From an uncultured Gammaproteobacteria bacterium (lineage in GTDB: Bacteria > Pseudomonadota > Gammaproteobacteria > Steroidobacterales > Steroidobacteraceae), in the NCBI GenBank assembly GCA_963777725.1, contig CAVZRR010000009.1, positions 13,050-77,049 on the forward strand: DNA of 64,000 nucleotides, written 5' to 3'. The notes below the pieces were generated by a model, which was not told where the DNA came from, made no database searches, and saw only the letters and a list, made by a program, of their open reading frames with translations. A program made the translations under genes and the position numbers. The first letter of the stretch is position 1, and each line of letters begins with the position of its first letter. Positions 22,064-56,619 of the stretch are shown piece by piece.

Positions 22064-22855
22064 CTAACGCGTCACCCACCGGTAGGCGGTGCCGGCGAGG
22101 CCTTCGGGGTCGAACGGTCGCCACTGGCCCTCGGGCTGCGCCAGCCGATCGGCGACGATCCACAGCACCACGGCGTTGAAACCCAGCCCGCAGTGGCTGC
22201 CCGGCACGCGGATGTTCTCGTGCATGGCCGGGTCGCCGTCGAACATCGCCTGGTGCTTCGGCACGACCCCGTCACTGTCGGAATACAGGCAGCTCATCGG
22301 CACCGGCGGCCGCGCGCGCAGTTGCTTCACGCGTGGCTGCATCGCGTGCGCCGCCGATCCGAGCGGGTGCGCGACGAGCCGGTACAGCGCGTGCACGACC
22401 GGCGGCGACTGGCTGCCCTCGGGACCGACCGTGACCGGGCTGCCGAGCGTGATGATGCCGCGCACGCACTCGGCGGCGTGGTGGGCGACGTACAGCGCGA
22501 ACGCACCGCCGAGGCTCCAGCCCACGATGCTGACCTTGCGGCCGTGCTTGTGGTGCATGAAGCGCACCTTCTGCTCGAGCGCGGCGACGTGCTTGCGCTG
22601 CAGCCCGACGTTGCGGCCGAAGCCCCAGGTCTCGACGACGTAACCGCGGTTGCGCAGGAACGCCTTCATCGCGGCGAGCGGAATCTCGCTGCTCAGGAAA
22701 CCGGGCACCAGCAGCACCGGGTGGCCGTCGCCGTGCGGCGCGCGCAGCAGGAAGGGCAGCGCCTGCGGCAGCATCGCGAGCTCGAGCGCCGCGCGCAGCT
22801 CGAGCAGCGAATGCAGCGTGCGTGGCGGACCTATTCGGGACGGTGCAGTGGCCAT
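22064..22855 (-). CDS. Alpha/beta-fold hydrolase
   Basis: HPVLLVPGFLSS and nucleophile elbow VGWSLGG. The start is uncertain (ATG 22855 or TTG 22882). Confidence 0.7.
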   Translation of the reverse strand: MATAPSRIGPPRTLHSLLELRAALELAMLPQALPFLLRAPHGDGHPVLLVPGFLSSEIPLAAMKAFLRNRGYVVETWGFGRNVGLQRKHVAALEQKVRFMHHKHGRKVSIVGWSLGGAFALYVAHHAAECVRGIITLGSPVTVGPEGSQSPPVVHALYRLVAHPLGSAAHAMQPRVKQLRARPPVPMSCLYSDSDGVVPKHQAMFDGDPAMHENIRVPGSHCGLGFNAVVLWIVADRLAQPEGQWRPFDPEGLAGTAYRWVTR

Positions 22856-22891
22856 GGAGTAGGATCCCCAGCGATCCGCCAACGATAACAG

Positions 22892-22958
22892 AGGTGCCGG
22901 TGGTCGGATCCGTTGGATTTGGCGCTGCCAAATCCGACGGATCCGACCACCGGCACCT
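22892..22958. repeat. 67-nt palindromic hairpin element, copy 1
   Basis: AGGTGCCGGTGGTCGGATCCGTTGGATTTGGC-gct-GCCAAATCCGACGGATCCGACCACCGGCACCT. I paired it by hand into a 32-bp stem with one G-U and a 3-nt loop. It lies between the divergent hydrolase and WS/DGAT genes. Confidence 0.9.
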
Positions 22959-22971
22959 TCGGAAAATGCTT

Positions 22972-24354
22972 ATGAAGAGACTGACCGGCCTGGACGGGAT
23001 GTTCCTGCATCTCGAGACGCCGCAAACACCGATGCACGTCGGCTCGCTGGCGCTGCTCGACCTGCCGAAGGGCTACCGCGGCGACTTCCTCGAGGACGTC
23101 AAGCGCTTGTACGCGCGCCGGATCCCGCTCGCGCCCGTGGTGAGCCGGAAACTGCTGGAACTGCCGCTGCACATGGCCAATCCGGTCTGGGTGCAGGCGG
23201 AGTCCATCGACCTTGACGCGCACATCCGGCGCATCGTGCTGCCGAAGCCTGGCACGCAGGCGCAGCTCGAGGACTGCGTCGGTCAACTGCACTCGATTCC
23301 ACTCGACCGGACCCGGCCGCTCTGGAGCGTCGCCATCATCGAGGGCCTGAAGAGCGGCCAGGTCGCCTACTACACGAACATCCACCACGCCGTGATCGAC
23401 GGGCAGGCTGGCGTCGAGTTGTCGAAGGCGATCTTCGATCTCACGCCGAAGTCGCGACGCGTTGCGCGCGTGCCGCATCGAACCATGCGGCGCGGGGACG
23501 AGCACCCCTGGCCCGGCGCGCTGATCGCAGGGGCCTTGCGACACGACGCGGAGCAGTATGCGAATTTCGTGCAGCAGCTGCCGGAGCTCGCCCGCAGGCT
23601 CGCCGGCATGAGGCGCGCTGCAAGGAGCAGTGCACCCGGCGGCTTCGCGCCAAGGACTCCGCTCAACGTCGGCATCAGCGCCGAGCGCGGCTTCGCCGGC
23701 GTGTCGGTACCGATGAAGGAAGTCAAGGCGATCGCGACGGCATACGAGGCGAAGGTCAACGACGTCGTGCTGGCGATCTGCAGCGGTGCCCTGCGGCGGT
23801 ACCTGGGACACCACGGCGGTGTCCCGGAAGAGTCGCTGATCGCGGCCATGCCGATCTCGCTGCGCGAGCCCGGCAATACCGAGTTCACGACCCAGGCGAC
23901 CATGGTCCGGGTCGCCCTCGCCACCGACATCGCCGACCCGGTACGCCGCCTGCGCGTGATCCGCGACGCGACTAGCGCTGCGAAGTCAACCAGCGGCCGC
24001 GGCAAATCACTGCTGCCCATGGACTTCCCGACCATCGGCCTGCCTTGGATCGTGCACGGGCTGGCGTCGCTGTATGGTCGATCGGGCCTCACCAACCTCG
24101 CTCCGCCGATCGTCAACGTCGTCGTCTCGAACGTTCCCGGCCCGCCCGTGCCGCTGTATTTCGCGGGCGCCCGAGTCGCCCAATACTGGCCTCTGTCCAT
24201 CGTCCAGCACGGGCTCGGCGTCAACATCACGGTGGAAAGCTACGCCGGCGCCCTCGGCTTCGGCGTGACCACGGCTCGCGACGCCATGCGGGATCCGCGC
24301 CAGTTCGCCCGGGCGCTGCTCGCCGCGCACCAGCAATTGATGAAGCGGCTGTGA
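22972..24354 (+). CDS. WS/DGAT wax-ester synthase / diacylglycerol acyltransferase
   Basis: MKRLTGLDGMFLHLETPQTPMHVGSL N-terminus and catalytic HHAVIDGQAG (HHxxxDG). An alternative ATG exists at 22966. Confidence 0.85.
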   Translation: MKRLTGLDGMFLHLETPQTPMHVGSLALLDLPKGYRGDFLEDVKRLYARRIPLAPVVSRKLLELPLHMANPVWVQAESIDLDAHIRRIVLPKPGTQAQLEDCVGQLHSIPLDRTRPLWSVAIIEGLKSGQVAYYTNIHHAVIDGQAGVELSKAIFDLTPKSRRVARVPHRTMRRGDEHPWPGALIAGALRHDAEQYANFVQQLPELARRLAGMRRAARSSAPGGFAPRTPLNVGISAERGFAGVSVPMKEVKAIATAYEAKVNDVVLAICSGALRRYLGHHGGVPEESLIAAMPISLREPGNTEFTTQATMVRVALATDIADPVRRLRVIRDATSAAKSTSGRGKSLLPMDFPTIGLPWIVHGLASLYGRSGLTNLAPPIVNVVVSNVPGPPVPLYFAGARVAQYWPLSIVQHGLGVNITVESYAGALGFGVTTARDAMRDPRQFARALLAAHQQLMKRL

Positions 24355-24361
24355 TCTCGAG

Positions 24362-24427
24362 AGGTGCCGGTGGTCGGATCCGTCGGATTTGGCAATGCCA
24401 AATCCGACGGATCCGACCACCGGCACC
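24362..24427. repeat. Palindromic hairpin element, copy 2
   Basis: Same sequence as copy 1 except for one stem base and the loop. It forms a perfect 31-bp stem (24363-24427) and starts 8 nt after the WS/DGAT stop. Confidence 0.9.
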
Positions 24428-24484
24428 GGCCCATTGAGCGTATAAAGGTAGACCCCCCTCCGAGCCGACGAGAGCGTTCGAGCA

Positions 24485-24799
24485 ATGCACGACAAGTCCC
24501 GCGTCTTCGACAACGACCCGCCCTACGGGGCCGCCAGCGACATCGCCGCGGAGCGGCGCCAGCGCATTGCCGCCGAGCTGGCCGCCGTGCAGGAACGCAA
24601 GCAGCGCGATCTTTCACTGCAGACGTCGATGTCGAGCTCGCCCGAAGAGCGCATCAGCCTGTGGGAGCGACGCCACGGCATGAGCCTGCCGCGCGATGCG
24701 GCGCACCCCGTGCTGCCGTTCATCGCCAAGAGCACCGGACTGCTGCTCGAGCAGGTCCTGGACGAGCAGCGCCGCCGGGCCAGCCTCCGCGGCAACTGA
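24485..24799 (+). CDS. Hypothetical protein (104 aa)
   Basis: Track ORF with plausible composition (MHDKSRVFDNDPPYGAASDIAAERRQRIAAELAAVQERKQRD...). Same strand as the SIR2-TIR gene and upstream of it. No recognisable domain. Confidence 0.45.
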   Translation: MHDKSRVFDNDPPYGAASDIAAERRQRIAAELAAVQERKQRDLSLQTSMSSSPEERISLWERRHGMSLPRDAAHPVLPFIAKSTGLLLEQVLDEQRRRASLRGN

Positions 24800-24904
24800 T
24801 CGATCGACGCGTCAGCGCGTCGGCGCGTCAGCGGGCCATCGGGTTCCTGCCGGGAGAGTGCTATTCTCGGCGTGCACAGGGGATGACCGCGCACAAACAG
24901 AACG

Positions 24905-26284
24905 ATGGCCGCGCTACCGCAGCTGCAGAACCTCGATGACGATGCCTGGGACGACCTCCTCAATTACATAGAGGAGCGTCGGGTCATCCCGATCATCGGG
25001 CCCGACCTGCTGCGCGTCGAAACCGAGCGCGGCCCGCGCCTGCTCTACGAGTGGCTCGCCGAGAAACTCGCCGCCCGGCTTGCGGTCGACGTGACCGGGC
25101 TGACCCAACCCCTGACGCTGAACGACGTGGTCTGCTGCTACCTCGGCCAGCGCGGCCGGCGCGAAGAGGTCTACACCCGGCTGCGCTCGATCATGCGCGA
25201 GGTGCAGCTCGCACCCACGATGGCGCTGCGGCAACTGGCGCAGATCACCGACTTCGACCTGTTCGTGACCACGACGTTCGATCCGTTGCTGGAGCAGGCA
25301 CTCAACCTGGAGCGGTTCGGCGGCCAGCCGACGGCAGACGTCATCGCCTATGCGCCGAACCGCGTCGCGGACCTGCCCGCCGAGCGCAGCCAGCTGCAGC
25401 GCCCGGTGGTCTATCACCTGCTGGGACGCCTCTCGGCCTCGCCCACCTACGTCGTCTCCGACGAGGACATGCTCGAATTCATCTGCGCGCTGCAGTCCGA
25501 GCACCTGACGCCGGAGAAGCTTTTCCACGAGCTGGAGCACAACCACCTGCTGCTGATCGGCAGCGATTTCTCGAACTGGCTGGCGCGTCTCTTCCTGCGC
25601 ATGGCGAAGCGCCGCAGGCTTTCGGATCCGCGCGACGTCGGCGAGGTGTTCGCCGACGACCACACGATGAAGGACGAGCGGCTCGTCGCATTCCTGCAGC
25701 AGGTCAGCGTGCGCACGCGCGTCTACTCCGGTGCCGAGGCTTTCGTCGCGGAACTGCACCAACGCTGGCAGCAGCGCCAGACGACCGCGGCGCCCGCGCC
25801 TGTCGCCGGCACCGCGCCGCAGCGCTTCCTGCCGCCGTCACGCGAGATGCCGGAGAACGCGATCTTCATCAGCTACGCGCGTGAGGACCTGCCCGCCGTG
25901 CAGCGTCTCAAGGCCGGTCTCGACGCCGCGGGCCTGACGACCTGGTTCGACCTCGACCGTCTCGAGGGTGGCGACGACTACGACCGCAAGATCCACGCGA
26001 ACATCGCGCGCTGCAGCTTTTTCCTGCCGGTGATCTCGGCGACGACCCAGCGCCGGCTCGAAGCGTATTTCCGGCGCGAGTGGAGCTATGCAGTGGATCG
26101 CTCACGGAACATCGCCGAGGGTGCGGTCTTCATCCTGCCGGTCTGCATCGACGACACCTCGGAGGCGGCGGCCCTGGTGCCTGACAAGTTCAAGTCCGTG
26201 CACATCTCGCGCCTCCCGGATGGCGAGCCGACGCCCGACTTCCTGCGCCGGCTGCAGGATCTCTTCAGCGCACGCCGCGCATGA
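24905..26284 (+). CDS. SIR2-like (SIR2_2-type) domain fused to a C-terminal TIR domain
   Basis: SIR2_2-like blocks: RVIPIIGPDLL, FDLFVTTTFDPLLEQAL, VVYHLLGRLSASPTYVVSDEDMLEF, NHLLLIGSDFSNWLARLFL. TIR: AIFISYAREDLPAVQRLKAGLDAAGLTTWFDLDRLEGGDDYDRKI...FFLPVIS...FRREWSYA. Confidence 0.75.
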   Translation: MAALPQLQNLDDDAWDDLLNYIEERRVIPIIGPDLLRVETERGPRLLYEWLAEKLAARLAVDVTGLTQPLTLNDVVCCYLGQRGRREEVYTRLRSIMREVQLAPTMALRQLAQITDFDLFVTTTFDPLLEQALNLERFGGQPTADVIAYAPNRVADLPAERSQLQRPVVYHLLGRLSASPTYVVSDEDMLEFICALQSEHLTPEKLFHELEHNHLLLIGSDFSNWLARLFLRMAKRRRLSDPRDVGEVFADDHTMKDERLVAFLQQVSVRTRVYSGAEAFVAELHQRWQQRQTTAAPAPVAGTAPQRFLPPSREMPENAIFISYAREDLPAVQRLKAGLDAAGLTTWFDLDRLEGGDDYDRKIHANIARCSFFLPVISATTQRRLEAYFRREWSYAVDRSRNIAEGAVFILPVCIDDTSEAAALVPDKFKSVHISRLPDGEPTPDFLRRLQDLFSARRA

Positions 26285-29200
26285 AACCAACGCCACCCGA
26301 CCTGTCGGCCTCGGTCACGATCGACCCGGAAAATCCGTGGCTCGGTCTGTCGTCGTACTCCGAGGAGACCCGCGCGTATTTCCACGGCCGGGACGAGGAA
26401 GCGGCCGAGCTCGCTCGTCGCGTGCAGCGCAAGCTCCTCACCGTGCTGTTCGGCCAGTCCGGGCTCGGCAAGACTTCGCTGCTGCGGGCCGGCCTCGTGC
26501 CGCGGCTGCGCGGCGAGGGCTTCTGCCCGATATACGTGCGCGTGGACTACTCGCCCGAGTCGCCGCCGCCGTCGGAGCAGATCAAGCAGGCGATCTTCAG
26601 GGCCACCGCCGCAGCCGGCCACTGGTCCCGGCCCGGGTCGGCGATCGAGGGTGAATCGTTGTGGGAGTTCCTGCATCACCGCGGCGATCTGCTGCGCGAT
26701 GCGGCCGGCCGCACGCTGCTGCCCCTGCTGATCTTCGACCAGTTCGAGGAGATCTTCACGCTGGCGCAGGCGGATGACGCTGGTCGGCAGCGCGCGAAGG
26801 CATTTCTCGAGGACCTCGCGGATCTCGTCGAGAACCGCCCGCCGGCGGATCTCGAGCGACGGCTCGAGCACGACGAGGCCGACGCCGGGCACTACGACTT
26901 CTCGCGCGCCGACTACCGGATCCTGATCGCACTTCGCGAGGACTACCTCGCCCACCTCGAGAGCGTGAAAGGCATCATGCCCTCGATCACGCAGAACCGC
27001 ATGCGACTGGCGCGCATGAGCGGCGCGCAGGCGTTGAGCGCCGTGGTCAAGCCGGGCGGGCGGCTCGTATCGCAGGAAGTGGCCGAGTCGATCGTCCGCT
27101 TCGTTGCCGGTGGCTCGGAACTCACGAATGCCGAGGTCGAGCCATCGTTGCTGAGCCTCGTGTGCCGCGAGTTGAACACCGTGCGCCTGAACCAAAGTCG
27201 CGCGGAAATCTCGGCCGACCTGCTGGCGGGTTCGCGAGACACGATCCTCACGGAGTTCTATGAGCGGGCGCTCGCCGACCAGCCGGCCGGCGTGCGACGG
27301 GTGATCGAGGACGAGTTGCTGACGGAGTCCGGCTATCGCGAAAGCCTGGCCGAAGAACGCGTGACGAAGGCTCTCGCCGCGGCCGGTGCGGCGCCGGACG
27401 CGCTCGCGAAGCTGGTAGACCGTCGCCTGCTGCGCATCGAGGAACGGCTCGACATGCGCCGCGTGGAACTCACGCACGACGTGCTGTGCAGCGTCGTGCG
27501 CGGCAGCCGCGACCTGCGCCACGAACGCGAGGCCCGCGACGAGGCCGAACGCCAGCTCGCCGCGCAGCAGGCGCGCGAGGCGGAGACGCATCGCACGCTC
27601 GTCCGCACGCGCAAGGTGGCGCTCGTCAGCGCGGTGCTGATGCTGGTGGCCGTCGCCAGCGCCGTGTTCGGCTGGGTCAATTACCGCCGGGCGCACCAGG
27701 CGGACCTCGCGGCGCAGCAGGCGCGCGCCGACGCGGAAAAGCTCGTCGGGTTCCTGATCGAAGATTTCTACGCCGAGCTCGAGCCGACCGGGCGACTGGA
27801 AACCATGGGCAAGCTCGCGCACCTGGCCGTGAGCTATTACGACGGGCTGCCGCCAGAGCTCCGGACGCCCCAGACGCAGCTCTACCGTGGCATGGCGCTG
27901 GTGCGCGAAGGCGGCGCGCTGCTCGCCCGGGGCGACGTCGAGGCCGCCAACCCGAAGCTCGACGAGGCTCGGGCGCTGTTCGAGGCATTGCGGGCGGCGG
28001 ACGCCAGCAACGAACAGGCCACGATCGGCCTCGCACTGACGCTTTTCGCTCGGTTCTCGAGTTGGGGTCCCGCCGGCGCGCCGGGCGGCAAGGAAGGCGA
28101 CCTGCAGCTGGCTGCGGACCTGCTGCGGCCCCTCGTCCAGGAAGCGACGGGTTCGCGCCAGGCGAAAGTCGTCTATGCGGACGTGCTGAATTTCCTCAGC
28201 CACCAGCAGACGAAGGAAATGGGCATCGCCACCTGCGAGGAGGCGCGCAAGGTCCTCGTCGGCCTGGGCGCGCTCGACTTCACCGACCTGAACGCCGCGT
28301 CGATCTACGCCGACACCAGCGACTCGCAGGCCCGTCACGCCCTGGCGCTCGGCAGGCTGGAGGAGTCCGAACGGCTCACGCACGAGGTCTACGCGATCGC
28401 CGAAAAGGTGCTGGCGCAGCGCCCGGGGGACTTCCGATCCATGCGCAATCGCGCGCTGGCGGCCGACCTCCTCGGCCAACTGGCCATGCGCCGCCACGAC
28501 TATGTCGCCGCCGCGGAGTACGCGGCACGAACCGAACTGGCCGGCCAGAACTATGTGCAGTTCAACCCGTCGGACCTGAGTGCCTGGGACTACTGGATCC
28601 GCGGCAAGGACCAGGTGTCCGATACGCTGTTCGAGCGCGGCCGCGTGCTCGAGTCGATCGACGTGCTGCGCGCCGCCGTGGCGCTGGAGAAGGACGCCCG
28701 CCTGCCATCCAGCCTCAGTCCGCAGCTCAACTGGACGTGGGCCGAGCTCGCAGGACAGGAAGCCCGGTCCGGGCAACGAGCCAATGCGGAGAAGTCGCTG
28801 CGGGAAGCGATTCGTGCGAACGACGAATTGTTGAAGGTCTCCGGCAATACCGGCCAATGGCGCGAACTGCTGCCGCTGATGCCCGATGCGTGGCGGCAGC
28901 GGTTGGACCTGTATTTCGGGGACTACCCGGCCGCGCTCGAGGGCTCCGCAGCAAATGCACGTCGCCTGGGTGGGCTGCAGTTGCCGGCGGATGACGAGAA
29001 CGCCCAACGGATTCGTGCCAATCTGCTGCGTTTCACGCTCGGCACCGCAGCAATGGCGGCCCTGCGACTTGGCCGCGACGCCGAAGCCGAGAGCGCGCTG
29101 CGGGAGCGGCTGACCCTGCCGCCCAACCCGTTCTCCGGAGCCGATCCGCAGGATGAGGTGTCGCGCTCCCAGGTGATGCTGGCCCACGCCGTCACACGGC

Positions 29201-29481
29201 AGGGTCGTAGCGCCGAGGCGCGCGAGATCCTGCAGCCCGCACTGCAGCGCTATCGCGCCGCACAAACGCAAGGCGCCAGCGGCATCACGTTCCAGCGTGA
29301 TCTCGCCTATGCCCTTTATGCCAACGCAATCGCGCAGGACGGCGACCGCGAGGGCCGGGAGCAACGGGAAGCGTCGCTGGCGGAGGCCGCGAAACTGCTG
29401 TCGAACCTGCCGGCGGAGGCGCAGCAGATCTGGGACATACGCGTGGTGGCCGACCTGGTCGACGCCGCCCGGGGCAGTTGA
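26281..29481 (+). CDS. STAND-type P-loop NTPase with one TM helix and a ~600-aa TPR-like C-terminal region
   Basis: The ATG overlaps the upstream stop (GCATGA). NPWLGLSSYSEETRAYFHGRDEEAAEL, Walker A LFGQSGLGKTSLLRAGLVP, Walker B LLIFDQFEEIF. TM helix VALVSAVLMLVAVASAVFGWVNY flanked by RTRK and RRAH. Helical-repeat tail. Confidence 0.75.
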   Translation: MKPTPPDLSASVTIDPENPWLGLSSYSEETRAYFHGRDEEAAELARRVQRKLLTVLFGQSGLGKTSLLRAGLVPRLRGEGFCPIYVRVDYSPESPPPSEQIKQAIFRATAAAGHWSRPGSAIEGESLWEFLHHRGDLLRDAAGRTLLPLLIFDQFEEIFTLAQADDAGRQRAKAFLEDLADLVENRPPADLERRLEHDEADAGHYDFSRADYRILIALREDYLAHLESVKGIMPSITQNRMRLARMSGAQALSAVVKPGGRLVSQEVAESIVRFVAGGSELTNAEVEPSLLSLVCRELNTVRLNQSRAEISADLLAGSRDTILTEFYERALADQPAGVRRVIEDELLTESGYRESLAEERVTKALAAAGAAPDALAKLVDRRLLRIEERLDMRRVELTHDVLCSVVRGSRDLRHEREARDEAERQLAAQQAREAETHRTLVRTRKVALVSAVLMLVAVASAVFGWVNYRRAHQADLAAQQARADAEKLVGFLIEDFYAELEPTGRLETMGKLAHLAVSYYDGLPPELRTPQTQLYRGMALVREGGALLARGDVEAANPKLDEARALFEALRAADASNEQATIGLALTLFARFSSWGPAGAPGGKEGDLQLAADLLRPLVQEATGSRQAKVVYADVLNFLSHQQTKEMGIATCEEARKVLVGLGALDFTDLNAASIYADTSDSQARHALALGRLEESERLTHEVYAIAEKVLAQRPGDFRSMRNRALAADLLGQLAMRRHDYVAAAEYAARTELAGQNYVQFNPSDLSAWDYWIRGKDQVSDTLFERGRVLESIDVLRAAVALEKDARLPSSLSPQLNWTWAELAGQEARSGQRANAEKSLREAIRANDELLKVSGNTGQWRELLPLMPDAWRQRLDLYFGDYPAALEGSAANARRLGGLQLPADDENAQRIRANLLRFTLGTAAMAALRLGRDAEAESALRERLTLPPNPFSGADPQDEVSRSQVMLAHAVTRQGRSAEAREILQPALQRYRAAQTQGASGITFQRDLAYALYANAIAQDGDREGREQREASLAEAAKLLSNLPAEAQQIWDIRVVADLVDAARGS

Positions 29482-29502
29482 CGAACCTGCGGAGCAAGGA
29501 CG

Positions 29503-30678
29503 ATGTCTGACCGAGCACCGATCCCACGTGACCCGGACAACGACTACACGCCGGAAATGGCCGAGCGCCGGGCCGAGTTCCTGCGCGAGAAGACCGGCAC
29601 GACGCTGAACCACGTGCGGCGCGCGTCGTTCGACCCGGCCGTGCTGCCCGGCAACATCGAGAATTTCATCGGCGTCGCGCAGGTGCCGATCGGCCTGGCG
29701 GGGCCGCTGCGCATCAATGGCGAGCACGCCCAGGGCGACTTCTACGTGCCGCTCGCGACCACGGAAGGCACGCTGGTCGCGAGCTACAGCCGCGGCATGC
29801 GGGTGGTGTCCGAGTGCGGCGGCGTCACGGCGACCGTCGTCAAGCGTTCGATGCAACGCGCGCCCGTGTTCATGTTCGGCACCGCGCGCGAGGCGCGCGA
29901 TTTCGGCGAGTGGCTGACCCAGCGCTTCGACGACGTGAAGCAGGCCGCGGAAGCGACCACGCGCAGCGGGCGGCTGGTCGAGATCGAGCAGTACGCGATC
30001 GGCAACCTGCTCTACCTGCGCTTCAACTACACGACGGGCGACGCGGCCGGCCAGAACATGACGGGCAAGGCCACGCATGCCGCCTGCGAGTGGATCCACG
30101 CGACGCACCCGTCGCGGCCGAAGTACATGCTGTCCGGCAGCATCGACACCGACAAGAAGCACTCGGCGATCAACACGCTGCGCACGCGCGGCCGCCGCGT
30201 GGTCGCCGAGGCCGTGATCAAGAACGACGTGCTGCAGCGACTGATGCGCGTGGACACGCGCACGCTGTTCAAGGCGCGGCAGGTGTCGAACGCCGGGGCG
30301 TTGCTCGCCGGCACGGCCTACAACGGGCCACACGCGGCGAACGGCATCACGGCGATGTTCATCGCCACGGGACAGGACGTCGCCAACGTCGCGGAGTCGC
30401 ACGCGGGCATCACCTACGCGCAGCTGCTCGACAACGGCGACTACTACTGGTCCGTGACGCTGACCTCGCTGATCGTCGCGACCTACGGCGGCGGCACCGG
30501 CCTGCCGACGCAGCGCGAGTGCCTCGAGCTGCTCGACTGCTACGGCAATGGCAAGGCCGACAAGCTCGCCGAGATCGTCGCGGCCGTGGTGCTCGCGGGC
30601 GACATCTCGCTCGGCAGCGCCGTGCTCGCCGGCGACTGGGTGACGAGCCACGAGAAGCTGGGCCGCAACCGGCCCTGA
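29503..30678 (+). CDS. Class I hydroxymethylglutaryl-CoA reductase (soluble catalytic domain)
   Basis: ENFIGVAQVPIGLAGPL, PLATTEGTLVASYSRG, TGDAAGQNM, ATYGGGTGLPTQRECLELL. These are class-I HMGR signature blocks from memory. Starts 21 nt after the STAND gene stop. Confidence 0.8.
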   Translation: MSDRAPIPRDPDNDYTPEMAERRAEFLREKTGTTLNHVRRASFDPAVLPGNIENFIGVAQVPIGLAGPLRINGEHAQGDFYVPLATTEGTLVASYSRGMRVVSECGGVTATVVKRSMQRAPVFMFGTAREARDFGEWLTQRFDDVKQAAEATTRSGRLVEIEQYAIGNLLYLRFNYTTGDAAGQNMTGKATHAACEWIHATHPSRPKYMLSGSIDTDKKHSAINTLRTRGRRVVAEAVIKNDVLQRLMRVDTRTLFKARQVSNAGALLAGTAYNGPHAANGITAMFIATGQDVANVAESHAGITYAQLLDNGDYYWSVTLTSLIVATYGGGTGLPTQRECLELLDCYGNGKADKLAEIVAAVVLAGDISLGSAVLAGDWVTSHEKLGRNRP

Positions 30679-30682
30679 GCCG

Positions 30683-31750
30683 TCACGGCACCAGCGACAG
30701 GAACAGGAACGCCGCGAAGATCACCAGCTGCACGGCGCCCTGCATCATGTTGGTCCGGCCGCTGCCGAGCGCGATCGAGCCAACCACGAAGCTGAGCGTC
30801 ATCAGCACCATGTCCTTCGCCGCGAGACCGAGCACCAGCGGCAGGTCGAACAGCGCCGCGACCAGCACCACCGCCGGCACGGTGAGCCCGATGCTGGCGA
30901 GCGCCGAACCCAGCGCCAGGTTCAGGCTGGTCTGGAATCGGTTGGCCAGCGCGGCACGCAGCGCCGAAACGGTCTCGGGCAGCAACACGACGAGCGCGAT
31001 CGCGATGCCGACGACGGCGTGCGGCGCGCCGGCGGCCCGCACAGCCGCCTCGATCAGCGGCGACAACATCTTGGCGAGGCCGACGACCGACACCAGCGAA
31101 ACCAGCAACAGCGCCAGGCTCGCCAGCGCCTGCCTGACCGAGGGCGGCGGCGCGTGGCTCGCCTCGTTGGCCGGATCGACCCGCGGCAGGAAATAATCGC
31201 GATGGCGCACGGTCTGGAAGAACACGAACACGCACCACAGCAGCAGCGACGAAACCCCGACGAACGCCAGCTGGGTCGGTGAATAGCTGCCGCCCGCCGC
31301 GCTCTTCGTGAACACGGGCATGACCAGCACGAGCGTCGCCAGCGTGACCATGGCCCCAAACGCGGGACCGGCACCCTCGATCCGGAAGGTCTGTTCGCGG
31401 TGGCGCAAGCCGCCCAGCAGCAGGCAGATGCCGATCACGCCACTGCTGATGATCATCACGGTCGCATAGACCGTGTCGCGCGCCAGGGCCGCCTTGTCCG
31501 GCCCACCAGCCAGCATCAGCGAAATGATCAGCGCGACCTCGATTGCCGTGATCGCCAGTGCGAGCACCAGCGTGCCGAACGGTTCGCCCACCCGATGCGC
31601 AACGACCTCGGCGTGGTGGACCGCGGCCAGCACGGAAGCCACCAGTGCGATCACCGAGAGCACGGCCAGTGCCGTCCCGAGCGGCATCAGCAGCGTGGTT
31701 GCCAGCAGCGACGCGGCGCCCAACGGGACGAAAACGGGCCAATGGGTCAA
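30683..31750 (-). CDS. chaA: ChaA-like Ca2+/H+ (cation/proton) antiporter
   Basis: VHHAEVVAHRVGEPFGTLVLALAITAIEVALI and LLPETVSALRAALANRFQTSLNLALGSALASIGLTVP are colinear with E. coli ChaA as I remember it. Probable TTG start at 31750. Confidence 0.75.
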   Translation of the reverse strand: MTHWPVFVPLGAASLLATTLLMPLGTALAVLSVIALVASVLAAVHHAEVVAHRVGEPFGTLVLALAITAIEVALIISLMLAGGPDKAALARDTVYATVMIISSGVIGICLLLGGLRHREQTFRIEGAGPAFGAMVTLATLVLVMPVFTKSAAGGSYSPTQLAFVGVSSLLLWCVFVFFQTVRHRDYFLPRVDPANEASHAPPPSVRQALASLALLLVSLVSVVGLAKMLSPLIEAAVRAAGAPHAVVGIAIALVVLLPETVSALRAALANRFQTSLNLALGSALASIGLTVPAVVLVAALFDLPLVLGLAAKDMVLMTLSFVVGSIALGSGRTNMMQGAVQLVIFAAFLFLSLVP

Positions 31751-33375: not shown

Positions 33376-35394
33376 TCAAACCGTTGCAACCGCGGCGGGC
33401 GGCCAGAAGAAGTCGCGCGGCCGGCTCAGGAACCGGCGCAGCACCCGCGCCCAGAGCCCGCGCGTCTGCTCGGGCGTGATGCCACGCGAGCGCAGCGCGA
33501 CCTTCAGCGCGAGCCAGAAGCTGACGACCAGGTTGACCAGGCCGATCAGCAGCACGCCCGCGAAGCTGACCACGACGGTCGACACCGGCACCGCGAACTC
33601 GAGCGCGTTCAAGCCGTAGGCGAAGTTGGCGCTCGAGAAGGCGACGTGACGGATGTCGAGCGGCAGTCCGAGCAGCTCACCCGCGATCGGCGTGCAGCCC
33701 AGCATGCAGCCGAACAGGAAGTTACCCGCCAGCGCGCCGAGATTGTGCTCGACGTAGTCGGCAAGCCGCCCGAGCCGTTCGTCCCCAAGCAGTCGGCGCA
33801 ACGACTTCACGCGGCGCAGTCGCTCGGGCACGCGGTGGTACAGCGACTGGTTGTCGTAATAGCCCGAGATGAGTCCGCTCAGGAAAAGATAGACGCCGGC
33901 GATCGCCGCGTGCAGCAGCGCGAGGCTGCGCCACGGATGCAGGTCGTGCAGCAGGTGCGCCGCCTTGTCCGGCCCCACCGGATCCCAGCCGAGGAACCGG
34001 CCCGCCGTCATCGCGATCGCAAACGCAGCGAGCAGGCAGATCGTCACGTTGCCCGCGATCGAGATCCACTGCGTGCGGCTTACCTCGGCCGCGAGGTCCG
34101 CCAGCACGTCCAGCCGCGCCTCGCGATTGTCCCGGCCGTCGAGTTCCGCGGCGAGCGTCGCGGCGGTCATCGCCGGTTGCTTGGTGGCGATGGTCAGGTG
34201 CAGCACGTGGATCAGCACGAAGCCGACGCCGTAGTTGAGGCTGAACGCGACCGCCTCCCAGACGGGGGGCAGGTCGAGCTTCGCGGTCAGGATCTTGACC
34301 AGCGCCATCGCGGCGATGATCAGTCCGGCCCCGGCCGCGGCGCGGTACATGGCGAAGTATTCGCCGCGGGACGCGGTGATGTAGTGCTCGCCGGAGTGGC
34401 TCGCCTGCTCCGTGACGCGCCGCGCGAGCAGTTCAGTGGTGCCGCGGAACAGGTCGCGGATGCTGTTGCGGCGATTCTCCTGCCGGACCAGGCGCAGGAA
34501 GAACTCGAGCTCGCGACTGTGCGCCACGCCGGCCGCGCCGGGTGCAGACGGCACGAGCAGCTCACGCAGCTCGCGCAGCCGCGCGAGGATCTGCTCGATC
34601 CGCGCCAGCAGGAAGACGAGGTTGACGCCGACGCCCGCCTCCCGGGAACGGCGGCGCAGCGTGTCCACGTACTCGTCGCACTGGCAGAGCAGCACCTCGA
34701 GGTGCCCGTCGTCGGGAGACGACGGCAAGGTCTCGGCATGGTGCTCGATGAAGCCACGCACCTCGGCCATCTGGGCGAGGAACGGCGATTCGTGGCGCGC
34801 CAGCGCGGGCAGGTACTGCAGCAGCGCGGTGTCGGTGCCGAGCGCCGCGAGCCGCACGGAATCGAGCCGCATTGCCTCGAGGGCCTCGTGGCGGCATTTG
34901 CGCCGCGCCGGCGCAAAGTCGTCGCCATCCACGCCGATCGCGTCGAGCAATGCGGCCCAGTCCGCGCGCGGCACGGCGAACATCCAGCGGTGATCCTCGG
35001 GGTGGTCGAACACCTCGACGACCAGGTCGCGCAGGTATTCGGTGTCCACCGCGGGGGGCAACAGTCGCCCGAGCAGGCGCCGGACCAGCCCGCTCATGAA
35101 ACCCGGGTTGGTCAGGATGCCGGACTCCGCATAGAGAATGCGGTGCATCCGTGACGTGAGCAGGCCGCCGAGATGGGCGTTCAGGGCCGCTGCGAATTCG
35201 GGTCGGGCGCGCAGGACGCCGATCAACGAGCGCAAGTGCTCGCTGGCGGCCGCGAGGCTGTCGCGACCGCGGGGACGGATCTCGGCGACCAGCCGCGCGA
35301 GCCACTCGCCGGAAGTGACGGGCGGGCGGTCCTGGAGTTCCTGCAGCAGGCGGGCGAAGGCCTCCGTGCGATCGTCAGTCGCGCTGGGATTCAT
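33376..35394 (-). CDS. Gcr-type 'site-specific recombinase' family (PF10136-like) multi-TM protein
   Basis: Long helical N-terminal half and multi-TM C-terminal half (AAAGAGLIIAAMALVKIL ..., GVLLIGLVNLVVSFWLAL). The family name is from memory of the annotation label only. Confidence 0.55.
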   Translation of the reverse strand: MNPSATDDRTEAFARLLQELQDRPPVTSGEWLARLVAEIRPRGRDSLAAASEHLRSLIGVLRARPEFAAALNAHLGGLLTSRMHRILYAESGILTNPGFMSGLVRRLLGRLLPPAVDTEYLRDLVVEVFDHPEDHRWMFAVPRADWAALLDAIGVDGDDFAPARRKCRHEALEAMRLDSVRLAALGTDTALLQYLPALARHESPFLAQMAEVRGFIEHHAETLPSSPDDGHLEVLLCQCDEYVDTLRRRSREAGVGVNLVFLLARIEQILARLRELRELLVPSAPGAAGVAHSRELEFFLRLVRQENRRNSIRDLFRGTTELLARRVTEQASHSGEHYITASRGEYFAMYRAAAGAGLIIAAMALVKILTAKLDLPPVWEAVAFSLNYGVGFVLIHVLHLTIATKQPAMTAATLAAELDGRDNREARLDVLADLAAEVSRTQWISIAGNVTICLLAAFAIAMTAGRFLGWDPVGPDKAAHLLHDLHPWRSLALLHAAIAGVYLFLSGLISGYYDNQSLYHRVPERLRRVKSLRRLLGDERLGRLADYVEHNLGALAGNFLFGCMLGCTPIAGELLGLPLDIRHVAFSSANFAYGLNALEFAVPVSTVVVSFAGVLLIGLVNLVVSFWLALKVALRSRGITPEQTRGLWARVLRRFLSRPRDFFWPPAAVATV

Positions 35395-55401: not shown

Positions 55402-56619
55402 TCAAGCCGCCTTCCAGACCGGTTGCAGCCGCGCCGGTCCGCGTCGCGCGTCGAGGCTGCCGACCAGCACGAGGCACCCCGCGACCGACAGCACGAACCC
55501 GGCCAGGAAGGTCGGCGCGTAGCCCACGGCGTCGGCGATCGCGGCGCCGGTGAAATTGGCGAGCCCCATCGTGAACACGATCGCGCAGGCGAGCAGCGTG
55601 TAGTCGGTGCCGGCGTGCTCGGGATCGGAGGCGTCCATCATCAGCGTGAACAGCGCGACCGTGGCCATGCTGCCGAGCAGGTGCTCCGCGACCGTGCCGG
55701 CCCAGAACATGCCGAGCCCGCCGATCCCGTGCGCGGCGGCGACGTAGAACAACAGGCTCGCGGATTGCAGCAGCCCGCAGGCCAGCAGCGCGGCGCGGCG
55801 GCCGGCCCGGAATGCGAACCAGCCCCCGAGGGCCGCGCCGCCGAGGCTGGCCACCGAGCCCACGGTGCCTTTCATCAACGCGATCGTCTCCTTGCTGAGC
55901 CCCGAGTCGCGCATGAACGGGCCGATCAACGTGGCCACCATCGAATCGCCGAATTTGTAGAAGCAGATCAGCACAATGAACGCGCCCATGCCCGGCACGC
56001 GCAGGCGCTGGATCCATCCGGCCGCGAGCTGGCTGGCACTGGGCCGCCGCGCGGCCTCCGGCGGTGTCGGCTCGCGCAGCCACAGCACCGGCAGCACCGT
56101 GATCGCCAGCAAAGCGGCCATGCACGCGAACATCGTCGCCCAGTCGGTGCGGGCGAATACCCAGAGCAGCAGCCCGCCGCCGAGGATCATGCCGATCCGG
56201 TACGCGCCGACCTGGATGCCGTTCGCGAGGCCGCGCTCGCGGGTGTCGAGGATGCGCACCGCGAGTCCGTCGGTCGCGACGTCCTGGCAGGCTGCAATCA
56301 CGTTGAACAGGAACGCCGCGGCCAGCACGACGATGAAGCCACGGCCGAGGTCGACCTGCGACAGCGCGAGCGCGCCCACGACGGCCGCGAGCTGCAGCGG
56401 CAGCAACCATTGCCGGCGGGTGCCGCGATGGTCCACGAATGGCGCCCACAGGAACTTGAGCGCCCACGGCAGGAACAGCAGGCTCGTCGCGCTGATGGCC
56501 TTGAGCGACAGGCCGGCGTCACGCAGCAGCACGGGCAAGGCCTGCGTGAAGAAGCCGTAGGGCAGACCCTGGGCCACGTACAGGCTGGTCAGTAGCCAGA
56601 TCTTGTGACTGCGACTCAT
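55402..56619 (-). CDS. ampG: AmpG-family muropeptide MFS transporter
   Basis: LYVAQGLPYGFFTQALPVLLRDAGLSL ... PWALKFLWAPFVD. Confidence 0.75.
   Translation of the reverse strand: MSRSHKIWLLTSLYVAQGLPYGFFTQALPVLLRDAGLSLKAISATSLLFLPWALKFLWAPFVDHRGTRRQWLLPLQLAAVVGALALSQVDLGRGFIVVLAAAFLFNVIAACQDVATDGLAVRILDTRERGLANGIQVGAYRIGMILGGGLLLWVFARTDWATMFACMAALLAITVLPVLWLREPTPPEAARRPSASQLAAGWIQRLRVPGMGAFIVLICFYKFGDSMVATLIGPFMRDSGLSKETIALMKGTVGSVASLGGAALGGWFAFRAGRRAALLACGLLQSASLLFYVAAAHGIGGLGMFWAGTVAEHLLGSMATVALFTLMMDASDPEHAGTDYTLLACAIVFTMGLANFTGAAIADAVGYAPTFLAGFVLSVAGCLVLVGSLDARRGPARLQPVWKAA

What the first reader, a model, noticed from the sequence alone, without database searches (positions are those of the whole stretch)
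29503..30678. Orphan class-I HMG-CoA reductase 21 nt downstream of the STAND gene, on the same strand
**Seen in sequence**
- A 391-aa soluble HMGR catalytic domain with class-I signature blocks: ENFIGVAQVPIGLAGPL, TTEGTLVAS, DAAGQNM, GGGTGLPTQRECL.
- It starts 21 nt after the STAND stop, with GGAG about 11 nt upstream.
- A convergent chaA-like gene follows it. This window contains no other mevalonate-pathway gene (HMG-CoA synthase, mevalonate kinases or decarboxylase, idi).

**Established knowledge**
- Gammaproteobacteria normally use the MEP pathway.
- From memory, isolated archaeal-type HMGR genes of unknown role occur in Vibrio and a few other lineages.

**Inference**
- It is either an unrelated passenger gene co-transcribed with the SIR2-TIR/STAND pair, or an NAD(P)H/CoA-thioester enzyme recruited as a third component of that module.
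Basis: partly seen in the sequence, partly recalled or inferred. Interest (0 to 1): 0.6.

Follow-up and report, generated by a model that had tools for sequence, protein, structure and literature searches.

The report
Fatty-alcohol reductase, not orphan HMGR
The gene that looks like a stray HMG-CoA reductase most likely encodes an FcrA-type enzyme (described in 2025) that makes fatty alcohols for the wax-ester synthase 5 kb upstream, and the SIR2-TIR/STAND defence pair is an unrelated insert that some strains carry between the two.

Summary
The ORF is real: 29503-30678, 391 aa, a full-length class-I HMGR-type domain. The genome has no mevalonate pathway and does have the MEP pathway.

It is not a functional orphan and not a defence component.
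1. The catalytic E/K/D/H residues are kept. The Lys that binds the HMG carboxylate (human K735) is Ser, and Leu862 is Trp. Two of the three published pocket changes of FcrA are thus present; the third (Ser684 to Glu) is not. FcrA is the HMGR-derived fatty acyl-CoA reductase of Grossi et al. 2025.
2. In a tree it falls inside the large non-canonical clade, away from human, plant and archaeal HMGR.
3. A WS/DGAT wax-ester synthase lies at 22972-24354. In 98-99% identical strains the order is WS/DGAT, orf104, 76 bp, this gene, with no defence genes.
4. The 4.6-kb SIR2-TIR/STAND pair is present or absent between strains. It occurs in six other genomes without any FcrA nearby, three of them with no HMGR-like gene at all.
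5. The insert replaced the short spacer that carries a -10-like promoter element, so co-transcription with the pair is likely but incidental.

Verdict: a new member of a known kind. No enzyme or RNA data were available.

The parts
22064..22855 (-). alpha/beta-hydrolase gene (263 aa), divergent from WS/DGAT; a candidate lipase or esterase of the neutral-lipid module
   Evidence: Weak Abhydrolase_1 and PGAP1 hits on the identical gene in relatives. Weak esterase and PHA-depolymerase-type hits in NCBIfam. The start codon was checked.
22972..24354 (+). WS/DGAT wax-ester synthase / acyltransferase (460 aa), the likely user of the fatty alcohol
   Evidence: PF03007 at 229 bits plus PF06974. TIGR02946 at 419 bits, above its 310-bit cut-off. 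The start codon was checked.
24362..24427 (.). 66-nt perfect palindrome just after the WS/DGAT stop; a near-identical copy lies at 22892-22958 before the gene
   Evidence: Folding gives -72.8 kcal/mol, z = -12.7. Both copies are printed. The element is conserved in L018.
24485..24799 (+). orf104, a conserved 104-aa ORF of unknown function between WS/DGAT and the reductase
   Evidence: It is 97-99% identical in 7 related contigs, with or without the cassette. It matches no Pfam, NCBIfam or PADLOC family.
24859..24867 (+). TGCTATTCT, an extended -10-like element 46 nt before the SIR2-TIR ATG; the only such element upstream of the reductase in this strain
   Evidence: In strains without the cassette the same motif lies 41-48 nt before the reductase ATG. 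The looser GCTAYNCTCG has 9 copies in the genome, seven of them with an ATG or GTG 19-42 nt downstream, which fits a generic -10 box.
24905..26284 (+). SIR2-like + TIR fusion gene, first gene of the strain-variable defence cassette
   Evidence: PF13289 and PF13676. TIR hits in PADLOC. Present in L086-L088 and absent in L083-L085.
26281..29481 (+). nSTAND1 NTPase with a TPR-like C-terminal region, second gene of the cassette; overlaps the first gene by 4 nt
   Evidence: PF20703 at 118 bits. Homologues paired with SIR2-TIR occur in six other genomes at other loci.
29482..29502 (+). 21-nt junction holding the reductase ribosome-binding site (GGAG at 29491-29494); no promoter-like or terminator-like element
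   Evidence: Sequence. The consensus scan found nothing. The fold of 29400-29520 is weaker than the mean of its shuffles (z = +1.5).
29503..30678 (+). FcrA-type fatty acyl-CoA reductase (HMGR class-I fold, 391 aa, core domain only)
   Evidence: PF00368 at 420 bits. Glu88, Lys218, Asp292 and His383 are kept, while K735 is Ser262 and L862 is Trp379. It lies in the non-canonical clade.
30683..31750 (-). convergent ChaA/CaCA-type cation/proton antiporter gene (355 aa as called in relatives)
   Evidence: PF01699, TIGR00846 and NF007895. Conserved next to the reductase in all close strains.

Best explanation
The gene encodes an FcrA-type fatty acyl-CoA reductase. FcrA is a descendant of class-I HMG-CoA reductase. 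It keeps the catalytic machinery for the four-electron, NAD(P)H-dependent reduction of a CoA thioester to a primary alcohol, but it has lost the HMG-binding pocket and acts on long-chain acyl-CoA.

Here it most likely supplies fatty alcohol to the WS/DGAT encoded 5 kb upstream. That enzyme would esterify the alcohol with a second acyl-CoA to make wax esters for storage.

The native locus is: alpha/beta hydrolase (divergent), WS/DGAT, orf104, a 76-bp spacer with a -10-like promoter element, fcrA, and a convergent chaA. In this strain and some sister strains a 4.6-kb SIR2-TIR/STAND defence cassette has replaced that spacer. As a result fcrA now sits 21 nt behind the STAND stop with only its ribosome-binding site. 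It is probably transcribed by read-through from the cassette.

Shown here: domain, residues, tree position, gene contexts, the presence/absence polymorphism and the missing mevalonate pathway. Inferred: substrate, cofactor, wax-ester role and co-transcription.
For: Fold and catalysis
- PF00368 matches full length. The closest solved structure is the archaeal HMGR 6HR7, E = 1e-87.
- The catalytic Glu88, Lys218, Asp292 and His383 are present.

FcrA signature (Grossi et al. 2025, PMC11948995)
- Lys735 is replaced by Ser262 and Leu862 by Trp379 in three independent pairwise alignments with human, Arabidopsis and M. thermolithotrophicus HMGR.
- In 196 close homologues Trp is invariant and Lys never occurs at that position.

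Phylogeny
- Of the 125 most similar 50%-identity cluster representatives that cover the core, 119 lack Lys735. All but a few of them carry F, W or Y at position 862.
- These 119 and the window protein form one clade (support 0.89), separate from the six S-K-L canonical sequences. The window protein sits in a Trp subclade with support 0.965.
- That subclade contains an AMP-binding::HMGR-like fusion protein from Enterobacter kobei.

Pathway context
- The genome has no mevalonate pathway and has Dxr.
- It holds about 10 WS/DGAT paralogues.

Gene neighbourhood
- WS/DGAT is in the window.
- Among 80 relatives from several phyla, 21 have an acyl-CoA synthetase within 8 kb, 13 a WS/DGAT, 15 an SDR and 5 a phasin.

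Cassette is independent
- L083-L085 lack it, L086-L088 carry it, and L018 has a different 520-bp filler.
- The pair occurs elsewhere without FcrA.

Transcription
- The -10-like element is upstream of fcrA in strains without the cassette and upstream of SIR2-TIR here.
- There is no terminator-like hairpin at the junction.
Against: - No enzyme assay exists for this protein or for any member of its subclade.
- The third FcrA-specific change reported for N. pharaonis (Ser684 to Glu) is absent. Ser211 is retained, as in canonical HMGR. Only 5 of 119 non-canonical representatives keep Ser.
- The protein lacks the N-terminal lipid-carrier (Lad) domain of the characterised Pb-FcrA.
- I could not obtain the Pb-FcrA or N. 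pharaonis FcrA sequences. Clade membership therefore rests on signature residues and on separation from canonical HMGR, not on a tree that includes the characterised enzymes.
- The genome also has an AcrB-type reductase (PRK07201, 966 bits), so FcrA is not the only possible source of alcohol.
- WS/DGAT lies near the reductase in only 13 of 80 relatives. Grossi et al. note that fcrA is often used outside wax-ester synthesis.
- No RNA data were available to test co-transcription.
Confidence: 0.8

Rival explanations
1. It is an FcrA-type acyl-CoA reductase, but its product feeds something other than wax esters, such as ether lipids or free alcohols. Alternatively, this Ser684-retaining, core-only subclade prefers a different acyl-CoA, for example a shorter, hydroxylated or branched one.
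For: - Ser684, Arg590 and Lys692 of the HMG pocket are retained.
- Only 13 of 80 relatives have WS/DGAT nearby, while 15 have an SDR and 21 an acyl-CoA synthetase.
- Grossi et al. report that fcrA co-occurs with WS/DGAT less strictly than acrB does, and that it may serve ether-lipid synthesis.
- An AcrB-type reductase is also present in this genome.
Against: - In this lineage WS/DGAT, orf104 and the reductase are adjacent on one strand in every close strain.
- The genome carries about 10 WS/DGAT paralogues.
- Arg590 and Lys692 are also kept by most non-canonical representatives (86 and 109 of 119), so their retention says little about substrate.
Confidence: 0.12
2. It is a true HMG-CoA reductase kept without the rest of the pathway. 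It would work either reductively or oxidatively, for example in mevalonate catabolism, as proposed for other pathway-less HMGRs.
For: - The HMGR domain is full length and the catalytic tetrad intact.
- The cis-loop residues Ser684, Asp690, Lys691 and Lys692 are all conserved.
- Public databases annotate it as an HMGR.
Against: - Lys735, the salt bridge to the HMG carboxylate, is Ser. Leu862 is Trp, which Grossi et al. argue excludes the branched HMG moiety.
- The score is below the TIGR00533 equivalog cut-off.
- There is no HMG-CoA synthase, mevalonate kinase or decarboxylase in the genome.
- The characterised FcrA does not reduce HMG-CoA.
- The gene context is neutral-lipid metabolism.
Confidence: 0.04
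3. The reductase has been recruited as a third, NAD(P)H- or CoA-thioester-using component of the SIR2-TIR/STAND defence module.
For: - It lies 21 nt downstream on the same strand, with no terminator and no promoter element of its own in this strain.
- The same arrangement is found in three other contigs.
Against: - Near-identical strains have the reductase without the pair.
- None of 80 relatives of the reductase has the pair nearby.
- Six genomes carry the pair without the reductase nearby. Three of them have no PF00368 gene at all, and in the same-genus genome G131 the two lie on different contigs.
- The reductase matches no PADLOC model.
Confidence: 0.02

Closest known systems
FcrA, the fatty acyl-CoA reductase derived from class-I HMGR (Pb-FcrA of Ca. 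Promineifilum breve, N. pharaonis FcrA; Grossi et al., ISME J 2025, PMC11948995)
   Same: - HMGR class-I core with the conserved Glu/Lys/Asp/His tetrad.
- Lys735 replaced by a small residue and Leu862 by a bulky aromatic one (Trp, as in N. pharaonis).
- Host genome lacks the mevalonate pathway.
- The gene is linked to WS/DGAT, and in relatives to FadD-type ligases.
   Different: - Core domain only, with no N-terminal Lad or ACP domain.
- Ser684 is retained instead of Glu.
- No member of this subclade has been characterised.
- Membership was tested by signature and tree topology, without the reference sequences.
Canonical class-I HMG-CoA reductase (human 1DQ8/1DQ9, Arabidopsis 7ULI, Methanothermococcus thermolithotrophicus 6HR7)
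   Same: Same fold and domain (E = 1e-87 to 6HR7). Same catalytic residues, cis-loop (SG...TDKK) and C-terminal helix carrying the catalytic His.
   Different: - The HMG carboxylate-binding Lys735 is Ser and Leu862 is Trp.
- It scores below the TIGR00533 cut-off.
- There is no mevalonate pathway in the genome.
- It is separated from the canonical sequences in the tree.
AcrB/Maqu_2507-type and FarA-type alcohol-forming fatty acyl-CoA reductases (PRK07201, NAD_binding_4 family)
   Same: Same predicted overall reaction (acyl-CoA to fatty alcohol) and same role of feeding WS/DGAT. This genome also encodes one, at C3:199506-201503.
   Different: Unrelated fold (Rossmann SDR-type against the HMGR fold). 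According to Grossi et al., FcrA does not reduce free aldehyde, whereas FarA and AcrB do.
Avs5-like SIR2-STAND and other TIR/SIR2 NAD-targeting defence pairs
   Same: The neighbouring cassette combines SIR2-like and TIR domains with a STAND NTPase and varies between strains, as defence genes typically do.
   Different: The reductase is not part of it. No known defence system includes an HMGR-fold protein, and the co-occurrence test failed here.

Membership tests
Class-I HMG-CoA reductase (functional HMGR, EC 1.1.1.34) | HMG-CoA_red domain and fold | tested here: met
   PF00368 at 420 bits over positions 3-368 of 368. E = 1e-87 to PDB 6HR7.
Class-I HMG-CoA reductase (functional HMGR, EC 1.1.1.34) | Catalytic Glu559, Lys691, Asp767 and His866 | tested here: met
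   Glu88, Lys218, Asp292 and His383. Invariant in 196 close homologues.
Class-I HMG-CoA reductase (functional HMGR, EC 1.1.1.34) | HMG-pocket residues Lys735 (salt bridge to the HMG carboxylate) and Leu862 | tested here: not met
   Ser262 and Trp379 in alignments with the human, Arabidopsis and archaeal enzymes.
Class-I HMG-CoA reductase (functional HMGR, EC 1.1.1.34) | Score above the curated equivalog cut-off (TIGR00533) | tested here: not met
   350.8 bits against a cut-off of 441.8.
Class-I HMG-CoA reductase (functional HMGR, EC 1.1.1.34) | Mevalonate-pathway partners in the genome | tested here: not met
   No HMG-CoA synthase, mevalonate kinase or diphosphomevalonate decarboxylase above cut-off. 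Dxr is present. The genome is 93% complete.
FcrA (HMGR-derived fatty acyl-CoA reductase) | Bulky aromatic residue in place of Leu862 (reported for all FcrA) | tested here: met
   Trp379. Trp is present in every close homologue that has a residue at that position: 120 of 120 database homologues and 75 of 76 species loci, the last having a gap.
FcrA (HMGR-derived fatty acyl-CoA reductase) | Lys735 replaced by a non-basic, generally small residue | tested here: met
   Ser262. Close homologues have S, T, A, G, H, Q or Y, never K.
FcrA (HMGR-derived fatty acyl-CoA reductase) | Ser684 replaced by an acidic residue (Glu360 in N. pharaonis) | tested here: not met
   Ser211 is retained. Among 119 non-canonical representatives this position is E in 64, R in 22, D in 17 and S in 5, so the feature is not universal.
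FcrA (HMGR-derived fatty acyl-CoA reductase) | Placement in the monophyletic clade distinct from characterised HMGR | tested here: inconclusive
   It is nested in a 120-member non-canonical clade (support 0.89) away from the six S-K-L sequences. The characterised Pb-FcrA and N. pharaonis sequences could not be fetched for inclusion.
FcrA (HMGR-derived fatty acyl-CoA reductase) | Genomic link to WS/DGAT and/or FadD | tested here: met
   WS/DGAT lies in the same locus in all close strains. Among 80 relatives, 21 have an AMP-binding ligase nearby and 13 a WS/DGAT. A ligase::reductase fusion exists in the same subclade.
FcrA (HMGR-derived fatty acyl-CoA reductase) | NADPH-dependent reduction of C14 or longer acyl-CoA to alcohol, no HMG-CoA activity, insensitivity to statins, elongated pocket | not testable with these tools
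   This needs enzyme assays or tetramer modelling with ligands. The properties are known only for Pb-FcrA.
SIR2-TIR/STAND defence module (as a third component) | Conserved co-occurrence with the pair across genomes | tested here: not met
   None of 80 reductase loci has the pair. None of 6 loci with the pair has the reductase. Three genomes with the pair have no PF00368 gene. Near-identical strains lack the pair.

The most novel reading that the evidence does not exclude
The Ser684-retaining, Trp862, core-only subclade is spread at about 70% identity across Pseudomonadota, Actinomycetota, Acidobacteriota and Myxococcota. It may have a substrate range different from the characterised Lad-domain FcrA, for example hydroxylated, branched or shorter acyl-CoA. 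In cassette-bearing strains the reductase has also lost its own promoter region. Fatty-alcohol synthesis would then be transcriptionally tied to an NAD-targeting defence operon. That would be a natural case of a defence insertion rewiring a storage-lipid gene.
Probability: 0.1. Interest if true: 0.45.

Novelty: new member of a known kind. Interest (0 to 1): 0.2.

Why it matters
It corrects a misleading annotation. Public records call this protein and its hundreds of relatives 'hydroxymethylglutaryl-CoA reductase (NADPH)', but the evidence points to fatty-alcohol synthesis for wax esters in a bacterium that carries about ten WS/DGAT genes.

It also removes a tempting false lead, namely a metabolic enzyme as third partner of a SIR2-TIR/STAND defence pair. 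It gives a clean natural example of strains with and without a defence cassette inserted at one site. That helps anyone studying the cassette to define its borders (about 24807-29490).

The family itself was published in 2025, so the finding is confirmatory rather than new.

Tried and rejected
- Fetching the characterised FcrA sequences (Pb-FcrA CUS01882.1, N. pharaonis FcrA) for the tree failed. The paper's supplement holds no sequences. A locus search seeded with the closest 'EGW' representative reached only other MAGs. Cluster look-ups gave no haloarchaeal or Promineifilum names.
- The consensus promoter/terminator scan found nothing in 22600-31000. It is uninformative in this 69% G+C DNA.
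- I first read the shared TGCTATYCT motif as proof that the cassette landed between the fcrA promoter and its ribosome-binding site. The motif turned out to be a generic -10-type box; the looser GCTAYNCTCG lies shortly upstream of a start codon at most of its nine sites in the genome. DNA homology between the window and the cassette-free strains ends at the orf104 stop. The safer statement is that the whole 76-bp spacer was replaced.
- I looked for target-site duplications or a composition shift at the cassette borders. No duplication is visible at the junctions printed (no repeat search was run), and G+C is 0.67-0.72 throughout.
- The PF10136 recombinase 2.7 kb downstream is present in strains with and without the cassette, so it is not the cassette's mobility gene.
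- orf104 and the 137-aa ORF in the L018 filler match no family.
- Structure prediction was not run. Pocket geometry cannot be read from the tool's output, and the fold is already clear from sequence.
Full report
**Observation.** The ORF is exactly as described. It has an ATG at 29503 and a stop at 30676-30678, and it encodes 391 aa. Pfam HMG-CoA_red covers residues 21-388 across the whole profile at 420 bits. The four quoted motifs are present. The STAND gene stops at 29481. The 21-nt gap holds GGAG at 29491-29494. A convergent ChaA/CaCA antiporter gene ends 4 nt after the ORF's stop.

The window lies in a 3.36-Mb, 26-contig genome that is 93% complete. Its nearest relatives are Steroidobacteraceae MAGs. 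This is the genome's only PF00368 gene. There is no HMG-CoA synthase and no diphosphomevalonate decarboxylase. The best mevalonate-kinase hit scores 41 bits against a 163-bit cut-off. Dxr of the MEP pathway is present.

**What the neighbours say.** I took the 80 best species-level relatives with 8-kb flanks, called ORFs and clustered them. I then named the recurrent neighbour clusters with Pfam.
- 21 loci have an AMP-binding acyl-CoA synthetase.
- 15 have an SDR.
- 13 have a WS/DGAT wax-ester synthase.
- 5 have each of two alpha/beta hydrolase clusters.
- 5 have a phasin.
- 34 of 80 have at least one of these.

These loci come from Burkholderiales, Nevskiaceae, Solirubrobacterales, Bryobacteraceae and other groups. 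The window itself encodes a WS/DGAT at 22972-24354 (PF03007 at 229 bits; TIGR02946 at 419 bits against a 310-bit cut-off).

**Literature.** A full-text search for HMG-CoA reductase plus wax ester led to Grossi et al., ISME J 2025 (PMC11948995). They describe FcrA, a monophyletic offshoot of class-I HMGR that is widespread in bacteria lacking the mevalonate pathway.
- The purified enzyme from Ca. Promineifilum breve reduces C14 or longer acyl-CoA to the alcohol with NADPH.
- It does not reduce HMG-CoA and is not inhibited by simvastatin.
- It yields wax esters in E. coli when co-expressed with a WS/DGAT.
- The catalytic Glu559, Lys691, Asp767 and His866 are kept.
- Three HMG-pocket residues differ. 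Leu862 becomes a bulky aromatic residue in all FcrA. The universally conserved Lys (printed as 'Lys795'; by position it is Lys735) becomes a small residue. Ser684 is Glu in N. pharaonis.

**Testing those features here.** HMMER alignments with three solved canonical enzymes (human 1DQ8, Arabidopsis 7ULI, M. thermolithotrophicus 6HR7) agree with one another.
- Glu88, Lys218, Asp292 and His383 are conserved.
- Lys735 corresponds to Ser262.
- Leu862 corresponds to Trp379 (DWVTSH against GHLVKSH).
- Ser684 is retained as Ser211.

In 196 close homologues Trp is invariant and the 735 position is S, T, A, G, H, Q or Y, never Lys. An exhaustive HMMER search of 1.84 billion cluster representatives gave 4150 hits. 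Of the 125 best that cover the core, 119 lack Lys735. All but a few of these carry F, W or Y at position 862. In a FastTree LG+gamma tree these 119 and the window protein form one clade (support 0.89). That clade is separate from the six S-K-L sequences, which include the three solved HMGRs. The window protein sits in an 11-member, almost wholly Trp-bearing subclade with support 0.965.

The N. pharaonis signature is E-G-W, and the one E-G-W sequence in the tree (P0128) lies in this subclade. The spacing between the window protein's key residues matches the published N. pharaonis numbering to within one residue. The subclade also holds a 902-aa Enterobacter kobei protein that fuses an AMP-binding ligase to the HMGR-like domain. 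Such a fusion suggests an acyl-CoA substrate. The protein also scores below NCBI's HMGR equivalog cut-off.

I could not obtain the characterised reference sequences. Clade membership is therefore strongly indicated but not shown directly. The retained Ser684 and the absence of the Lad domain mark this as an uncharacterised, core-only branch.

**Relation to the SIR2-TIR/STAND pair.** L018 is a 3.3-kb contig whose reductase is 98% identical. It carries WS/DGAT and orf104, then about 520 bp of unrelated sequence, then the reductase, with no defence genes. I looked up the contigs that encode 98-99% identical proteins.
- L083, L084 and L085 have alpha/beta hydrolase (minus strand), WS/DGAT, orf104, a 76-79-bp spacer, the reductase and chaA (minus strand).
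- L086, L087 and L088 have the same order plus the SIR2-TIR and nSTAND1 genes, as in the window.

The 4.6-kb pair is therefore a presence/absence polymorphism within one population. It occupies a slot with at least three states. Homology between the window and the cassette-free strains ends at the orf104 stop (about 24806) and resumes at the reductase ribosome-binding site (about 29490).

From the reductase side, none of 80 species-level loci carries the pair. One locus, L003, has an unrelated TIR-TPR gene downstream. From the cassette side, full-length STAND homologues occur in 7 of 200 other genomes of the order. Six of these were examined with flanks.
- All six keep the SIR2-TIR partner (65-86% identity).
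- None has an FcrA, WS/DGAT, orf104 or ChaA homologue within 8 kb.
- Three of them (G036, G145, G166) have no PF00368 gene at all.
- In the same-genus genome G131 the two lie on different contigs.
- In G138 they appear to lie about 620 kb apart on one contig. This assumes the 2,173,036-bp contig is the one that holds L003.

PF00368 is itself patchy in the family, found in 11 of 61 genomes. No PADLOC model matches the reductase. The 'third component' reading is therefore rejected.

**Transcription (inferred).** In cassette-free strains the spacer before the reductase carries TGCTATCCT, an extended -10-like box, 41-48 nt before the ATG. More distant relatives have CATAAT- or GATAGGAT-type boxes at a similar distance. 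In the window the only such element is at 24859, 46 nt before the SIR2-TIR ATG.

The strict motif has just four copies in the genome. The looser GCTAYNCTCG has nine copies. Seven of them have an ATG or GTG 19-42 nt downstream, which suggests a generic -10 box rather than a recombination scar. The 21-nt STAND-reductase junction has no -10-like element. It has no terminator-like hairpin either (the fold has z = +1.5). The reductase is thus most likely transcribed by read-through from the cassette, or from an unrecognised promoter inside the STAND gene. Composition does not set the cassette apart, with G+C at 0.67-0.72 throughout. This fits exchange within the family.

**Wider genome context.** The genome has about ten WS/DGAT paralogues. 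It also has an AcrB-type two-domain fatty acyl-CoA reductase (PRK07201, 966 bits against a 549-bit cut-off, at C3:199506-201503). It is evidently a neutral-lipid-storing organism with two unrelated candidate sources of fatty alcohol.

**Earlier notes of this scan.** I consulted them after reaching this reading. One agent had judged the SIR2-TIR/STAND pair a mobile two-gene cassette, which my strain comparison confirms independently. Several agents had reached the FcrA reading for 'orphan HMGRs' in other genomes. These notes are leads, not evidence.

**Verdict.** The gene is best read as an FcrA-type fatty acyl-CoA reductase that serves the adjacent WS/DGAT (confidence about 0.8). It is a new, uncharacterised-subclade member of a family published in 2025, so novelty and interest are low. 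The residual interest lies in two points. The subclade keeps Ser684, and the defence insert has stripped the reductase of its own promoter region.

Noticed in passing
window 22892-22958 and 24362-24427: Two near-identical perfect palindromes of 66-67 nt bracket the WS/DGAT gene. The downstream copy folds at -72.8 kcal/mol (z = -12.7) and is conserved in the related contig L018. They could be REP-like elements or strong bidirectional terminators.
   Followed up: partly
window 24485-24799: orf104 is a 104-aa ORF that is always found between WS/DGAT and the reductase in this lineage (97-99% identity in 7 contigs). It matches no Pfam, NCBIfam or PADLOC family. It may be an accessory protein of the lipid module.
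   Followed up: partly
L018 1797-2210 (minus strand): In one sister strain the slot that holds the defence cassette here carries about 520 bp with a 137-aa ORF of no known family. The slot therefore has at least three states.
   Followed up: partly
own genome C3:199506-201503: An AcrB-type two-domain fatty acyl-CoA reductase (PRK07201, 966 bits) coexists with the FcrA-type gene. The genome also has about ten WS/DGAT paralogues in only 3.36 Mb.
   Followed up: partly
own genome C6:54972-56122: The Dxr match is split between two reading frames at 55835. This is probably a frameshift or an assembly error in an essential MEP-pathway gene.
   Followed up: no
protein cluster of P0147 (Enterobacter kobei, 878-902 aa): A natural fusion of an AMP-binding acyl-CoA synthetase to an HMGR-like (FcrA-type) domain. 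It lies in the same Trp subclade as the window protein and is annotated only as 'AMP-binding protein'.
   Followed up: no
L003 9270-11129; L083 1332-3167: TIR + TPR proteins of about 610-620 aa lie next to or near the reductase locus in related genomes. The TIR part of the L003 protein is 46% identical to that of the window's SIR2-TIR protein. The neighbourhood seems to attract TIR-type genes.
   Followed up: no
window 33376-35394 (minus strand): A 672-aa PF10136 'site-specific recombinase' gene lies 2.7 kb downstream. It is conserved in strains with and without the cassette, so it is not the cassette's mobility gene.
   Followed up: partly
own genome, 9 sites of GCTAYNCTCG: Seven of the nine sites have an ATG or GTG 19-42 nt downstream, which would fit the preferred -10 box of this high-G+C organism and could help promoter prediction in the family.
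   Followed up: partly
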